Positions 1-4,835 of a stretch of 4,835 bases of DNA are shown piece by piece. A program made the translations under genes and the position numbers. The notes beneath the pieces are model-generated. The model was given only the letters and a program-made list of their open reading frames with translations, was not told the origin of the DNA and searched no databases. The stretch is from IMG/VR virus record IMGVR_UViG_2671180435_000006; one strand, written 5' to 3'. Position 1 is the stretch's first letter, and each line of letters opens with the position of its first letter. Origin of the DNA: a virus (taxonomy: Duplodnaviria; Heunggongvirae; Uroviricota; Caudoviricetes).

Positions 1-32
1 ATACACTAAATCAGTAAGTTGGCAGCATCACC
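1..32 (-). mobile_element. IS1 terminus (left end, IRL), element body lies beyond the window's left edge
   Basis: Reverse complement of 1..32 is GGTGATGCTGCCAACTTACTGATTTAGTGTAT, which I recognise as the first 32 nt of IS1 including the 23-bp left inverted repeat. The element is therefore on the minus strand with its outer boundary at position 32. Confidence 0.9.
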
Positions 33-160
33 GAAGTGGTAAAGAAGATAATAAAGAATAATATTTAGGGTTATAGGTCTTAGCCCATTTTAAATGGAAG
101 GCAGACATGCAGCCATGCATACTTCGCATGGCAACATAATTATTTAGACAAACTATCTAA

Positions 161-398
161 NNNNNNNNNNNNNNNNNNNNNNNNNNNNNNNNNNNNNNNN
201 NNNNNNNNNNNNNNNNNNNNNNNNNNNNNNNNNNNNNNNNNNNNNNNNNNNNNNNNNNNNNNNNNNNNNNNNNNNNNNNNNNNNNNNNNNNNNNNNNNNN
301 NNNNNNNNNNNNNNNNNNNNNNNNNNNNNNNNNNNNNNNNNNNNNNNNNNNNNNNNNNNNNNNNNNNNNNNNNNNNNNNNNNNNNNNNNNNNNNNNNN
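161..398. other. N-masked block (238 nt), content unknowable
   Basis: Run of n characters seen directly in the sequence. Confidence 1.
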
Positions 399-513
399 AT
401 GGGTGAGCAATAATGTATACAAGATTAAGTAGTATATAAATTGCTACCGGAATGAAAATCATGCTCCAGTGTGTATCTTTTTTGGGAGGGATTGGCTGCA
501 AATAATCAGACAC
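399..513 (-). CDS. 5' part of an ORF encoding a hydrophobic, transmembrane-like segment; 3' end hidden in the masked block
   Basis: Minus-strand frame opens after an in-frame stop at 580..582 with GTG at 511..513 (alternative ATG at 460..462). Visible translation is MSDYLQPIPPKKDTHWSMIFIPVAIYILLNLVYIIAHP, with a roughly 18-residue hydrophobic stretch. Same strand as, and 82 nt downstream of, the 596..973 ORF. No convincing Shine-Dalgarno for either start. Confidence 0.3.
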
Positions 514-595
514 CGTTTTTCCATCAGTTTCAAGAAGAATTACTAGATCTCTTACTTCACCACTGACTTGAGTGCATCCTTAGTAGTAATGTTAA

Positions 596-973
596 TCATT
601 TTTTCCCTCCAAATACGATGCCCTCTACGTCTTTGGAAGCTTTTTGTGATGACCACTCCTCTGAATCAGGTGATTTAATTAAAAATATTGTATCTCCATC
701 AAAAATCGTATTTGTTCCGTAAAAATTCACATTTGATAGATCACCACCAAAAACCCTCTGCCCACTCGAGGTAATTGCCTCACCTAATTTAGTAAAATTA
801 CCAGCAATAGATGATTTTCTTTTTCCACTTCTATTCAAAGTGGCTTTAATTACACCACCACCATCCTTAGAGTTAAATAATTGAATGTCCACTCCAGCAG
901 TTGGTTGTATATATTTTGAAAGCTCTTTCTTGAACTTGTTAATATATTTATCTTTGTTTTCTTTGTTGGTCAT
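596..973 (-). CDS. hypothetical protein, 125 aa, A+T-rich, no family recognised
   Basis: Uninterrupted 378-nt ORF in DNA visibly much more A+T-rich than the nin genes, where stop-free frames of this length are unlikely by chance. ATG at 971..973, TGA at 596..598. Lys-rich N-terminus, Gly/Ser/Asn-rich body, no signal peptide or TM segment. Shine-Dalgarno weak. Confidence 0.55.
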   Translation of the reverse strand: MTNKENKDKYINKFKKELSKYIQPTAGVDIQLFNSKDGGGVIKATLNRSGKRKSSIAGNFTKLGEAITSSGQRVFGGDLSNVNFYGTNTIFDGDTIFLIKSPDSEEWSSQKASKDVEGIVFGGKK

Positions 974-1126
974 TGGTTAGATCCATAGTTCTGGCTGTGA
1001 TTAGGTGAAAGTATACAAGGTTTTTAAAGCGAAGATCACTGTTTTGGCTTCAAGATAGTTTTGATTTATCGTAATCAATCCGCCATAATCCTCTCATCGG
1101 AGCCTGAACAACTCCGGTGACTTCTG

Positions 1127-1150
1127 CGCATTTAAGGGGACTTAAATGCG
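1127..1150. promoter_or_regulatory. perfect 10-bp-stem palindrome (CGCATTTAAG-GGGA-CTTAAATGCG) in the leader upstream of the nin-type operon
   Basis: Arms 1127..1136 and 1141..1150 are exact reverse complements around a 4-nt loop. Not followed by a T-run on either strand, so not a canonical intrinsic terminator. Candidate protein-binding site or RNA hairpin. Confidence 0.3.
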
Positions 1151-1181
1151 ACCACAATCTGAACTCATCACCTTGTCACAG

Positions 1182-1211
1182 ATGCAGAAATGCACCTGCG
1201 ATTTTCTGCAT
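1182..1211. promoter_or_regulatory. inverted repeat ATGCAGAAA ... TTTCTGCAT (9-bp arms, 12-nt spacer) just upstream of the ybcN-like start
   Basis: Arm 1182..1190 is the exact reverse complement of arm 1203..1211. Lies 27 nt upstream of the ATG at 1238. Confidence 0.25.
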
Positions 1212-1237
1212 TCTGCGGTTTCCGTTAGGGAGGCCGT

Positions 1238-1693
1238 ATGACTCTGCCAGTAGACGGCATCAAACTCCATCGCGGTAACTTCGCGGCCATCGGCCAGCAG
1301 ATTCAGCCATTGCTGGATGCCGGGCAATGCTTACGCCTGCAGGTTAAGCCGTGGCGCGAGAAGCGCAGCCTGTCGCAGAACGCGCTCAGCCACATGTGGT
1401 ACACGGAGATCAGCGAATATCTCATCGCCCGCGGCAAGACCTTCGCTACGCCTGAGTGGGTCAAAGACGCGATGAAGCACACCTATCTCGGCTACGAAAG
1501 CAAAGACCGTGTAGATGTCGTGTCCGGCGAGGTCACCACCGTCCAATCCCTCCGCCATACGTCAGAGCTGGAAACCGGCGAGATGTACATCTTCCTGTGC
1601 AAAGTCGAAGCCTGGGCGATGAATATCGGCTGCCACCTGACAATTCCGCAGAGCTGTGAATACCAGCAGCTGCGCGATAAGCAGGAGGCGTAA
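1238..1693 (+). CDS. ybcN: nin-region protein of lambdoid prophage, YbcN-like (151 aa)
   Basis: ATG at 1238 preceded by GGGAGG at 1228..1233; TAA at 1691..1693. The 151-aa length and position immediately upstream of ninE-ybcO-rusA match the DLP12 gene order. I assign it by synteny and size; I do not recall the reference protein sequence well enough to confirm residue by residue. Confidence 0.8.
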   Translation: MTLPVDGIKLHRGNFAAIGQQIQPLLDAGQCLRLQVKPWREKRSLSQNALSHMWYTEISEYLIARGKTFATPEWVKDAMKHTYLGYESKDRVDVVSGEVTTVQSLRHTSELETGEMYIFLCKVEAWAMNIGCHLTIPQSCEYQQLRDKQEA

Positions 1694-3299: not shown

Positions 3300-4382
3300 T
3301 TAGAACTGGTAAACCATACCTACAGCAACGATATCATCGGTAGCAACGCCAGATGCTTTCGTGAAATCGCTCTTATCAATCAGGTTGATTTTGTAATCAA
3401 CAAAAGTGGACATATTTTTGTTGAAGTAATAGGTTGCACCTACATCAATATATTCAACCAGGTCCTGATCACCCCACGCACCCAAGTCTTTTCCTTTAGA
3501 TTGCAGGTAAGCAACGGACGGACGCAGACCGAAGTCGAACTGATATTGTGCAACTACTTCGAAGTTTTGTGCTTTGTTGGCAATATGGTTATTACCAAAA
3601 ACAGTCATGTTCTGGGTTTCAGAATAGGTGGTAGCCAGATAGATGTTGTTCGCATCATATTTCAGACCAGCTGCCCATACTTCAGCATTTTGACCAGATG
3701 CATTCAGGCTGTTGTTACCGTAGATAACCTGATTATTAGTGCGGTCAGATTTAGCATAGGTTGCACCTACACCGAATCCTTCATACTCATAAGTAGTGGA
3801 GAAACCGAAACCATCACCATTAGCTTCAGTTACGTCAGTGCGGTCATTTTTACCCTGATACTGAGCAGCAAAGTTCAGACCATCAACCAGACCAAAGAAG
3901 TCGTTGTTACGATAAGTTGCAACACCAGTGGTGCGACCAGTCATGAACACATCTGTTTGAGTCCAAGTGTCACCACCGAATTCTGGCAGGACGTCAGTCC
4001 ACGCACCGATGTCGTATGCTACACCGTAGTTACGGCCGTAATCGATGGAGCCGTAGTCACCGAATTTCAGGCCAGCGAAGGCAAGACGGGTTTTATCTTT
4101 GGAGGAACCTTGAGATTCAGCGCGGTTGCCTTTGAATTCATATTCCCACTGACCGAAACCAGTCAGTTGATCGTTGATTTGGGTTTCACCTTTGAAGCCA
4201 AGACGGGCATAAGTAGTATCACCATCATCTGCATCATTAGAGGAGAAGTAGTGCTTAGCATTAACTTTCCCGTACAGATCCAGCTTGTTACTGTCTTTAT
4301 TATAAATTTCAGCTGCCTGAGCAGACATCGCCATCAGTACTGATGCAGCTACAGCAGAAATTGCCACTGTTAATTTTTTCAT
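3300..4382 (-). CDS. nmpC: outer-membrane general porin, NmpC/OmpC/OmpD family (360 aa precursor), apparently intact
   Basis: Translation from the ATG at 4380..4382 gives signal peptide [23 protein letters not shown] followed by [17 protein letters not shown]..., with the aromatic-rich beta-barrel pattern and C-terminal ...VGMVYQF typical of enterobacterial porins. The track's longer form starting at 4442 adds 20 residues before the signal peptide and is rejected. Position after Q and opposite orientation match DLP12 nmpC as I recall it. Confidence 0.92.
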
Positions 4383-4502: not shown

Positions 4503-4784
4503 NNNNNNNNNNNNNNNNNNNNNNNNNNNNNNNNNNNNNNNNNNNNNNNNNNNNNNNNNNNNNNNNNNNNNNNNNNNNNNNNNNNNNNNNNNNNNNNNNN
4601 NNNNNNNNNNNNNNNNNNNNNNNNNNNNNNNNNNNNNNNNNNNNNNNNNNNNNNNNNNNNNNNNNNNNNNNNNNNNNNNNNNNNNNNNNNNNNNNNNNNN
4701 NNNNNNNNNNNNNNNNNNNNNNNNNNNNNNNNNNNNNNNNNNNNNNNNNNNNNNNNNNNNNNNNNNNNNNNNNNNNNNNNNNNN
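4503..4784. other. N-masked block (282 nt), content unknowable
   Basis: Run of n characters seen directly. It covers most of the region upstream of the porin gene, where its promoter would be expected. Confidence 1.
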
Positions 4785-4804: not shown

Positions 4805-4835
4805 GGTAATGACTCCAACTTATTGATAGTGTTTT
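4805..4835 (-). mobile_element. IS1 terminus (right end, IRR), element body lies beyond the window's right edge
   Basis: 4805..4835 reads GGTAATGACTCCAACTTATTGATAGTGTTTT, the IS1 right terminal inverted repeat read from outside inward. The element is on the minus strand, the same orientation as the copy at 1..32. Confidence 0.9.

What the first reader, a model, noticed from the sequence alone, without database searches (positions are those of the whole stretch)
399..1100. A+T-rich island with two minus-strand ORFs of unknown function between IS1 and the nin genes
Base composition drops sharply left of about position 1100 compared with the nin genes, suggesting separately acquired DNA. It encodes a 125-aa ORF (596..973) with no recognisable family, followed 82 nt downstream on the same strand by an ORF beginning with a transmembrane-like segment. 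In the DLP12 layout I recall, different genes (ybcL/ybcM/ylcH) sit upstream of ybcN, so this looks like a replaced or inserted module. Small soluble protein plus small membrane protein in a prophage accessory slot is the kind of layout seen for phage-exclusion or toxin-type modules, but I have no sequence-level support for any specific function.
Basis: partly seen in the sequence, partly recalled or inferred. Interest (0 to 1): 0.55.

Follow-up and report, generated by a model that had tools for sequence, protein, structure and literature searches.

The report
Conserved two-gene prophage cassette, half-broken
The A+T-rich island holds a real, horizontally mobile two-gene cassette (a small soluble protein plus a small three-helix membrane protein) that recurs across several bacterial phyla in prophages and next to anti-phage systems. 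Its function has never been tested, and in this window the membrane-protein gene is inactivated by a one-base deletion.

Summary
The A+T-rich island is real: GC 0.35 against 0.53 for the nin genes. ORF1 (596..973, minus, 125 aa) is intact. The true gene starts at 599, overlaps the ORF1 stop (ATGA) and has a GGAGG ribosome site. It encodes 142 aa in intact relatives. Here one missing base (about 575) puts a stop at 552.

An IMG/VR contig identical to the window shows both masks are padded by 32 nt and hide nothing unusual.

ORF1 and ORF2 have no Pfam, NCBIfam or PADLOC match. An exhaustive profile search found 111 ORF1 relatives. In all 19 lineages examined, ORF1 is followed by an ORF2-like protein: a cytoplasmic N-terminus plus 3 TM helices. 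No third gene is shared. Both genes are under purifying selection (dN/dS about 0.07).

The ORF1 model is confident (pLDDT 93.7) but has no relative among solved structures.

Contexts are the P–ninB slot of lambdoid prophages, another prophage, a position between Type III mod and res, a position just upstream of brxA-brxB, a toxin–antitoxin island, and transposase flanks.

Best reading (about 0.45): an uncharacterised phage-exclusion or abortive-infection cassette with a membrane effector, dead in this IS1-bounded remnant. A toxin–antitoxin role is the main rival.

The parts
1..31 (.). Terminal inverted repeat of an IS1 copy that truncates the prophage. It is the boundary, not part of the cassette.
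   Evidence: The first 31 nt match tens of thousands of places in E. coli genomes, whereas 32-160 match 46 genomes. The flank in L029 continues as IS1 sequence. This junction is absent from all 5,426 complete E. coli genomes.
32..61 (+). Last 30 nt of replication gene P, cut by IS1.
   Evidence: Window 32-160 aligns to L001 5666-5794, and P is annotated at L001 4982-5695.
68..86 (+). Terminator-like hairpin just after the P stop codon, resembling a nin-region terminator.
   Evidence: Consensus scan: 4 terminator-like sites against 0.6 expected from shuffles. Its function is inferred only.
140..599 (-). ORF2 pseudogene. Intact homologues encode a 142-aa protein with an N-terminal cytoplasmic segment of about 44 aa followed by 3 TM helices. 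Coordinates include the padded mask; the real length is 428 nt here against 429 nt when intact.
   Evidence: L001/L002 annotation WP_000608370.1. Translation and hydropathy. Full reconstruction from L029. phrog_16940 at E = 2e-96.
574..576 (-). Site of the 1-nt deletion (Gly9 codon, GGC to G-C) that frameshifts ORF2. The premature stop is at 554-552.
   Evidence: Alignment to L001. The same lesion occurs only in L029 among the 18 close IMG/VR loci.
596..973 (-). ORF1, intact. A 125-aa cytoplasmic alpha/beta protein, identical to WP_000182282.1, and the founding member here of a wide unnamed family.
   Evidence: phrog_18061 at E = 9e-85. 111 relatives. AF2 model with pLDDT 93.7. dN/dS 0.073.
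600..612 (-). Ribosome-binding site for ORF2, lying inside the end of ORF1: GGAGGG, then AAAAA, then the ATG. With the ATGA overlap this indicates translational coupling.
   Evidence: Read directly from the sequence. 4- or 8-nt overlaps recur in most distant loci.
974..1058 (-). Module-specific upstream region of ORF1, presumed to hold the promoter. It contains a TATACT hexamer but no confident sigma-70 match.
   Evidence: Homology to K-12 DLP12 starts only at 1059. The promoter scan is not above chance.
1059..1237 (+). Backbone DNA shared with DLP12, the right boundary of the module. It holds a conserved TTGATT-17-CATAAT promoter-like site, two terminator-like hairpins and a ylcH-like 31-aa ORF (1146-1241) ahead of ninB/ybcN.

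Best explanation
The island is a self-contained, horizontally mobile two-gene operon carried as a 'moron' in the slot between replication gene P and ninB/ybcN of lambdoid prophages. It is transcribed antisense to the phage early-right operon. ORF1 is a cytoplasmic alpha/beta protein of about 125 aa with a basic N-terminal helix. ORF2 is translationally coupled to it and is a small inner-membrane protein: a conserved, acidic cytoplasmic N-terminal segment of about 35-45 aa, then three TM helices.

Most likely mechanism (inferred, not shown): a phage-exclusion system of the abortive-infection type, expressed from the prophage in lysogens. ORF1 would act as the sensor or regulator and hold ORF2 in check, possibly by binding its N-terminal segment. 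On infection, ORF2 would be released to perturb the membrane and stop phage development.

In this window the system is dead. ORF2 carries a recent single-base frameshift, and the prophage is reduced to a 4.7-kb segment between two IS1 copies, probably in Shigella sonnei.
For: SHOWN.
- Both genes are real and constrained: dN/dS is 0.073 and 0.074 at dS of about 0.6.
- ORF1 belongs to a family of 111 representatives at 50% identity, with conserved Y10, G39, F-x-G-T-N 84-88, K100, W107 and D115.
- The pair is obligate. An ORF2-like partner follows ORF1 in 19 of 19 lineages examined, across Enterobacteriaceae, Acidobacteriota, Bacteroidota, Myxococcota, and Delta- and Betaproteobacteria, mostly with a 4- or 8-nt overlap.
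- The partners are homologous (hhalign 84.6%, E = 7e-6; BLASTP chain).
- No third gene is shared among 13 loci.
- Divergence of the two genes is correlated (r = 0.84).
- Contexts: the P|ninB slot in prophages with different backbones; another prophage next to lysozyme, holin and terminase genes; between Type III mod and res on the same strand, downstream of an HKD-Snf2 gene; 111 nt upstream of brxA-brxB; an island with BrnA, Gp49/HTH, GNAT genes and a transposase; transposase flanks plus PDC-S22.
- One family member is fused to an HNH nuclease in place of the stand-alone form.
- Four independent inactivations were seen.

INFERRED.
- N-in topology, from the conserved basic loop (RFK/KHK) between TM2 and TM3.
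- Charge complementarity: the first 25 residues of ORF1 carry +2 to +7, and the ORF2 N-terminus carries -6 to 0.
Against: There are no experimental data anywhere. The accessions appear in no paper and not in the DefensePredictor supplements held. No PADLOC model matches either protein.

Several loci lie between ordinary housekeeping genes: a response regulator and ValRS, a ClC channel, and ligA. The defence association therefore rests on 3-5 of 13 loci and is not a statistical enrichment.

No family member was detected in 50,697 deposited phage genomes or 72,556 plasmids.

Confidence: 0.45

Rival explanations
1. A toxin-antitoxin or addiction module. ORF2 would be a small membrane toxin and ORF1 its cognate antitoxin, with the antitoxin-first gene order seen in GhoS/GhoT. 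Its role would be to stabilise the prophage or island rather than to sense phage.
For: The operon is two small, tightly coupled genes with the soluble gene first. It is an autonomous cassette with variable neighbours. It occurs in an island full of TA genes and beside an Xre-MbcA antitoxin. The membrane gene is lost while ORF1 stays intact, here and in L037, which is the expected decay path for a toxin.
Against: The pair was not found on any of 72,556 plasmids, where addiction modules abound. ORF1 is disrupted by IS1 while ORF2 stays intact in two genomes; this would be lethal for a classical TA pair unless the insertion is polar. There is no match to GhoS/GhoT or to any Pfam antitoxin or toxin family. 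TA and abortive-infection functions also overlap, so this rival is not fully separable from the best explanation.
Confidence: 0.2
2. Superinfection exclusion at the envelope. ORF2 would act in the inner membrane to block DNA entry by incoming phages, as with T4 Imm or P22 SieA, with ORF1 as an accessory factor and without killing the cell.
For: It is a prophage accessory gene, antisense to the lytic operon and so plausibly expressed in lysogens. It is a small polytopic inner-membrane protein.
Against: The obligate cytoplasmic partner and the conserved cytoplasmic N-terminal domain of ORF2 are not needed for a simple injection block. Many copies are chromosomal, embedded in R-M or BREX loci or among housekeeping genes rather than in prophages. 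The HNH-fused variant points to an intracellular effector logic.
Confidence: 0.1
3. An accessory membrane function unrelated to phage conflict, for example a stress, transport or regulatory module that happens to ride on mobile elements.
For: Several loci lie between housekeeping genes. One IMG auto-annotation calls ORF2 a 'VIT1/CCC1 family transporter'. No defence model matches.
Against: The VIT1 match is noise: E = 1.2 and 9.3 bits against a 28.1-bit cut-off. A 3-TM protein of 125-142 aa is small for a transporter. The patchy cross-phylum distribution, A+T-rich moron placement, and insertion inside a Type III R-M operon fit conflict systems better.
Confidence: 0.2
4. The ORFs are chance reading frames in A+T-rich junk DNA left by prophage decay.
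For: In this window the prophage is a decayed, IS1-bounded remnant and ORF2 is broken.
Against: Homologues are intact across phyla, dN/dS is about 0.07, the ORF1 model is confident (pLDDT 93.7) and synteny is conserved.
Confidence: 0.01

Closest known systems
RexA/RexB of phage lambda (prophage-encoded abortive infection: cytoplasmic sensor plus small polytopic membrane effector)
   Same: A two-gene prophage cassette presumably expressed in the lysogen. One partner is soluble and cytoplasmic. The other is a small membrane protein of about 140 aa (RexB is 144 aa, from my own knowledge). The location is an accessory position in a lambdoid prophage.
   Different: No sequence similarity: Pfam lists no RexA or RexB hit even at E up to 10. 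ORF2 has 3 predicted TM helices plus a cytoplasmic N-domain of about 40 aa, against 4 TM helices in RexB. ORF1 is 125 aa against 279 aa for RexA. The cassette lies in the nin region and not in the immunity region with cI. The family extends well beyond phages.
GhoS/GhoT type V toxin-antitoxin system of E. coli
   Same: The gene order is small soluble alpha/beta protein first, small membrane protein second, in one tightly packed operon. The membrane protein is a plausible membrane-damaging effector.
   Different: No Pfam match to either GhoS or GhoT. ORF2 is much larger than GhoT (57 aa, 2 TM, from my own knowledge) and has a conserved soluble domain. There is no evidence that ORF1 is an RNase, and its fold has no relative among solved structures.
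Membrane-effector defence systems (TM effectors of CBASS, Pycsar and retrons; Kiwa KwaA/KwaB)
   Same: The logic is modular: a cytoplasmic sensing or regulatory component is coupled to a small TM effector. Here the sensor-like domain is once found fused to an HNH nuclease instead. Some copies lie next to R-M and BREX genes.
   Different: No cyclase, reverse transcriptase or other signal-generating enzyme is present. Neither protein matches any of the 5,027 PADLOC models. Both proteins are far smaller than KwaA and KwaB.
PHROG families phrog_18061 and phrog_16940 (unknown function)
   Same: ORF1 and intact ORF2 match these over their full length (E = 9e-85 and 2e-96).
   Different: These are narrow clusters of near-identical enterobacterial prophage proteins with no annotation. 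They do not capture the cross-phylum family found here.

Membership tests
RexAB (lambda) | Sequence or profile homology to RexA and RexB | tested here: not met
   Pfam scans at E up to 10 list no Rex family for either protein. No PADLOC hit.
RexAB (lambda) | Four-TM membrane partner, encoded in the immunity region and co-transcribed with cI | tested here: not met
   Three hydrophobic segments are predicted. The cassette lies between P and ninB, about 3 kb from cI and on the opposite strand to O and P.
RexAB (lambda) | Exclusion of superinfecting phage through membrane depolarisation | not testable with these tools
   Needs plating and membrane-potential assays.
GhoST type V TA | Homology to GhoS (antitoxin RNase) and GhoT (membrane toxin) | tested here: not met
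   No Pfam or NCBIfam hit. The ORF1 model has no significant structural neighbour.
GhoST type V TA | Membrane protein toxic when expressed alone and neutralised by the upstream gene | not testable with these tools
   Indirect and ambiguous only: ORF2 is lost with ORF1 intact in the window and L037, and ORF1 is disrupted with ORF2 intact in L042 and CV839-06.
Any catalogued anti-phage defence system (PADLOC-DB v2.0) | A profile match to a component of a known or candidate system | tested here: not met
   0 families for both proteins at E up to 1.
Defence-island gene (guilt by association) | Statistically enriched proximity to known defence genes across many homologues | tested here: inconclusive
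   Direct adjacency in L016 (BrxA/B) and L017 (Type III mod/res, HKD-Snf2). PDC-S22 lies 2.5 kb away in L021. Two further PADLOC hits were not placed. Other loci are housekeeping. The sample is 13 loci with no background model.
Phage holin or lysis-regulator | Holin family match and a position in the lysis cassette next to the endolysin | tested here: not met
   No holin Pfam hit. In E. coli the cassette is about 4 kb upstream of essD/rrrD, on the other strand and separated from them by the nin genes, Q and the porin gene.
VIT1/CCC1 Fe/Mn transporter (label given by one IMG source) | Pfam PF01988 match above the gathering threshold | tested here: not met
   E = 1.2 and 9.3 bits against a cut-off of 28.1. 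The label is seen.
Lambdoid prophage 'moron' (accessory gene cassette) | An independent insert between conserved backbone genes, with deviant composition, its own orientation, and present or absent among related phages | tested here: met
   GC is 0.35 against 0.53. It is antisense between P and ninB. It is absent from K-12 DLP12, with the breakpoint at 1059. It is present in 46 of 5,426 complete genomes and on varied backbones. Its own promoter was not demonstrated.

The most novel reading that the evidence does not exclude
ORF1 and ORF2 define a previously undescribed anti-phage system that is widespread across phyla. It would be built from two protein families with no relatives among solved structures or catalogued defence proteins. 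A small cytoplasmic sensor of novel fold would gate a 3-TM membrane effector, and the same sensor domain would be re-used with an HNH nuclease effector. It would be compact enough (about 0.8 kb) to ride inside R-M operons, next to BREX loci and in prophage moron slots.
Probability: 0.35. Interest if true: 0.7.

Novelty: new variant of a known kind. Interest (0 to 1): 0.5.

Why it matters
If the cassette is an exclusion system, it would add a very compact defence module of about 800 bp. Its sensor fold and its effector are both uncharacterised, so it offers a fresh case of how a cytoplasmic protein gates a membrane effector. It also illustrates how prophage moron slots and R-M or BREX operons exchange small cargo.

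The work turns two 'hypothetical proteins' into a defined, testable gene pair. Intact alleles are in hand (E. coli 536 and A7), and the window provides a natural loss-of-function allele. For this window specifically the biological consequence is nil, because the cassette is a pseudogenised relic in an IS1-bounded prophage fragment.

Tried and rejected
- Named-family searches (Pfam, NCBIfam, PADLOC) on both proteins gave nothing significant. The 7TMR-DISM_7TM hit for ORF2 (21.4 bits against a 29-bit cut-off) and the VIT1 hit are below threshold and reflect hydrophobic composition.
- The first ORF1 structure prediction, from 9 close homologues, was poor (pLDDT 58.5) and I did not use it. The 86-sequence alignment gave pLDDT 93.7.
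- tblastn of three family members against deposited phage genomes and plasmids found no match.
- Literature searches by accession and by topic found no description. The Nissle 1917 prophage paper concerns repressor-mediated immunity and is not relevant.
- The promoter scan was not above chance and there was no Rfam hit.
- I considered whether the extra 32 nt under the first mask meant a second lesion in ORF2. I rejected this because both masks exceed the identical contig L029 by exactly 32 nt.
- P0130 (1,251 aa, repeat protein) is probably a spurious profile hit.

Full report
THE WINDOW

The window is a fragment of a DLP12-like lambdoid prophage. It contains the last 30 nt of replication gene P, the A+T-rich island, ninB/ybcN, ninE, ybcO, rusA, ylcG, quuD and an intact nmpC/ompC-type porin gene. 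An IS1 terminal repeat bounds it at each end.

IMG/VR contig L029 (UViG 2627853732_000001) matches all three unmasked segments exactly and continues into IS1 on both sides. No complete E. coli genome has this IS1 junction. Many partial copies of the exact ORF1 protein come from Shigella sonnei assemblies. S. sonnei is therefore the likely source, but this is an inference.

THE OBSERVATION

The compositional island is real. GC is 0.35 over 399-1100 and 0.34 over ORF1 and over 32-160, against 0.53 for the nin genes.

Sequence homology between K-12 and the window begins only at window 1059. The module-specific DNA therefore runs from the P stop (about 62) to about 1058.

ORF1 (596..973, minus strand, 125 aa) is as described and is identical in protein sequence to RefSeq WP_000182282.1.

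The second ORF was mis-drawn:
- In intact relatives (E. coli A7 and 536) the downstream gene encodes 142 aa (WP_000608370.1).
- Its ATG (window 599-597) overlaps the ORF1 stop as ATGA, and GGAGGG lies 5 nt upstream.
- The window lacks one C of a CC doublet at about 575 (Gly9 codon). The frame then stops after 15 codons at 554-552.
- L029 shows that the sequence under the first mask is 206 nt and the sequence under the second is 250 nt. Both masks are exactly 32 nt longer, so they are padded. Apart from the single deletion, ORF2 is identical to the intact gene, which makes the inactivation recent.

ARE THESE REAL GENES?

Yes.
- Between E. coli-type and Enterobacter-type copies, dN/dS is 0.073 for ORF1 and 0.074 for ORF2 at dS of about 0.6.
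- Word-indexed searches found only Enterobacteriaceae homologues at 63% identity or above.
- An exhaustive HMM search of 1.84 billion cluster representatives found 111 ORF1 relatives, mostly 120-135 aa and matching full-length.
- Their alignment shows a basic N-terminal helix (often Y-I-N-N-F-R-R) and a conserved F-x-G-T-N ... [LI]-I-K ... W ... D core.
- None of 86 members has a Pfam domain, except one that carries an HNH nuclease C-terminal to the ORF1-like domain (P0104, 447 aa).

THE PAIR IS THE UNIT

I examined 19 lineages of the ORF1 family: the E. coli type, four metagenomic lineages, nine GTDB genomes from Acidobacteriota, Bacteroidota, Myxococcota and Delta-/Betaproteobacteria, three further representatives, and distant IMG/VR contigs.
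- In every one the next gene on the same strand encodes a protein of 125-155 aa, overlapping ORF1 by 4 or 8 nt in most loci.
- Each such protein has the same plan: a conserved N-terminal segment of about 30-45 aa (K-x-G ... E-G ... E-[IV]-x-[DN]-[LF] ... G-x-[DN]-L ... Y ... P ... W), then three hydrophobic helices with a conserved basic R-F-K or K-H-K loop between helices 2 and 3.
- Profile-profile comparison of the enterobacterial ORF2 family with four distant partners gives 84.6% probability and E = 7e-6 over 108 columns. BLASTP links the partners in a chain.
- An all-against-all comparison of the proteins encoded in 13 loci finds no other shared gene.
- Pairwise divergences of ORF1 and ORF2 are correlated (r = 0.84, descriptive only).
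- The first 25 residues of ORF1 are always net positive (+2 to +7), and the N-terminal segment of ORF2 is acidic to neutral (-6 to 0). This fits, but does not show, a direct interaction.

WHERE THE CASSETTE LIVES

In Enterobacteriaceae it always sits between P and ninB/ybcN, antisense to the early-right operon. The prophages differ in their cI, O and NinB alleles, which range from 27% to 100% identity. It is present in 46 of 5,426 complete E. coli genomes.

Elsewhere it is found in these settings:
- In another prophage, upstream of lysozyme, holin and terminase genes.
- On a contig with a phage O-type replication gene.
- In a Bacteroides genome, exactly between the Type III mod and res genes on the same strand, downstream of an HKD-Snf2 gene.
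- 111 nt upstream of brxA-brxB in a deltaproteobacterial MAG.
- In an island with BrnA, Gp49/HTH, GNAT genes and a transposase.
- Flanked by transposases, 2.5 kb from a PDC-S22 candidate defence gene, in Mariniflexile.
- Between housekeeping genes: a response regulator and ValRS, a ClC channel, and ligA.

No member was detected in deposited phage genomes or in plasmids.

Four independent inactivations were seen: -1 frameshifts in ORF2 (this window, and L037) and IS1 insertions in ORF1 (L042, and strain CV839-06).

MECHANISM

It is shown that this is a constrained, obligately paired, horizontally mobile two-gene operon encoding a cytoplasmic protein and a small polytopic membrane protein. The rest is inferred.

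The best-supported reading (about 0.45) is a phage-exclusion module of the abortive-infection type. ORF1 would sense or regulate, and ORF2 would be the membrane effector. This reading rests on four things:
- the moron placement in prophages;
- the insertion inside or next to R-M and BREX loci;
- the patchy cross-phylum distribution;
- the single HNH-fusion variant, which suggests that the ORF1 domain can be coupled to alternative effectors.

In a lambdoid prophage the antisense orientation within a terminator-rich nin region (terminator-like hairpins at 68-86 and 1183-1218) would allow expression in the lysogen and shut-off by pR read-through on induction. This is plausible but untested, and no promoter was identified above chance.

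The rivals are:
- A toxin-antitoxin or addiction role (0.2). It is hard to separate from abortive infection. The absence from plasmids counts against it. The recurrent loss of ORF2 counts for it.
- An envelope-level superinfection block (0.1).
- An unrelated membrane function (0.2).
- Chance ORFs, which are excluded.

COMPARISON WITH KNOWN SYSTEMS

The cassette resembles RexAB in outline: a prophage-borne pair of a cytoplasmic protein and a membrane protein of about 140 aa. It is not a member, because there is no homology, it has 3 rather than 4 TM helices, the partner size differs, and the locus differs.

It resembles GhoS/GhoT in gene order but shares no homology.

It matches none of the 5,027 PADLOC models, and no paper mentions the accessions.

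The only families it formally belongs to are PHROGs 18061 and 16940, both of unknown function.

VERDICT

The island and ORF1 are right. The ORF2 gene model is corrected, and ORF2 is a pseudogene here.

As a kind of system it is a new variant of a known kind, a small two-gene conflict-type cassette with a membrane effector, built from uncharacterised protein families.

Interest is moderate (0.5). The family-level finding is a clean, testable candidate system. But all functional claims are inferential, many such candidates already exist, and the copy in this window is dead.

Noticed in passing
window 161-398 and 4503-4784: Both masked runs are exactly 32 nt longer than the sequence they replace in the otherwise identical contig L029 (238 vs 206 nt and 282 vs 250 nt). 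Window coordinates to the right of each mask are therefore shifted relative to the real DNA. Nothing unusual lies under either mask: the first hides the middle of ORF2, and the second hides A+T-rich DNA upstream of the porin gene.
   Followed up: yes
window 1-31 and 4805-4835 (flanks seen in L029): The 4.7-kb prophage segment lies between two IS1 copies in the same orientation. The IRL of the left copy and the IRR of the right copy abut the segment. This is a composite-transposon-like arrangement or the residue of IS1-mediated deletions. The left copy cuts gene P 30 nt before its stop.
   Followed up: partly
window 3300-4382 (minus strand): The nmpC/ompC-type porin gene is intact here (360 aa) and in relatives. 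In K-12 DLP12 it is split by IS5.
   Followed up: partly
L017:3966-9916: In an uncultured Bacteroides genome the two-gene cassette is inserted between the Type III methyltransferase (mod) and restriction (res) genes on the same strand, with 37-nt and 93-nt spacers. This is an unusual place for cargo, inside an R-M operon.
   Followed up: partly
P0104 (L013:246-1589): A 447-aa protein joins an ORF1-like N-terminal domain to an HNH nuclease and an uncharacterised C-terminal region of about 200 aa. It is seen only on contigs of about 1.6 kb from two or three sequencing runs, so its neighbours are unknown.
   Followed up: partly
L037:6375-6805; L042:4735-4878; L047 (E. coli CV839-06):1996-2853: Other genomes carry independent lesions of the cassette: a second -1 frameshift in ORF2 (near codon 54) and two IS1 insertions in ORF1 near codon 48. 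Either gene can be lost while the other stays intact.
   Followed up: partly
window 1061-1241 (plus strand): The backbone DNA ahead of ninB/ybcN holds a TTGATT-17-CATAAT promoter-like site conserved with K-12, two terminator-like hairpins (1183-1218), a perfect 10-nt inverted repeat (1127-1150) and a 31-aa ylcH-like ORF (1146-1241) that overlaps the ninB start.
   Followed up: no
L003:6875-9879; L006:7122-7571: In the metagenomic loci several further genes without any Pfam match follow the cassette on the same strand. They are not shared between loci, so I did not count them as part of the system.
   Followed up: partly
L001:591-2239 and L002:872-2288: The otherwise near-identical prophages of E. 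coli A7 and 536 differ in another accessory slot upstream of cI. A7 has DUF4411 plus an ImmA/IrrE metallopeptidase, and 536 has an ASCH domain protein plus a hypothetical protein. This is a second variable cargo site on the same backbone.
   Followed up: no
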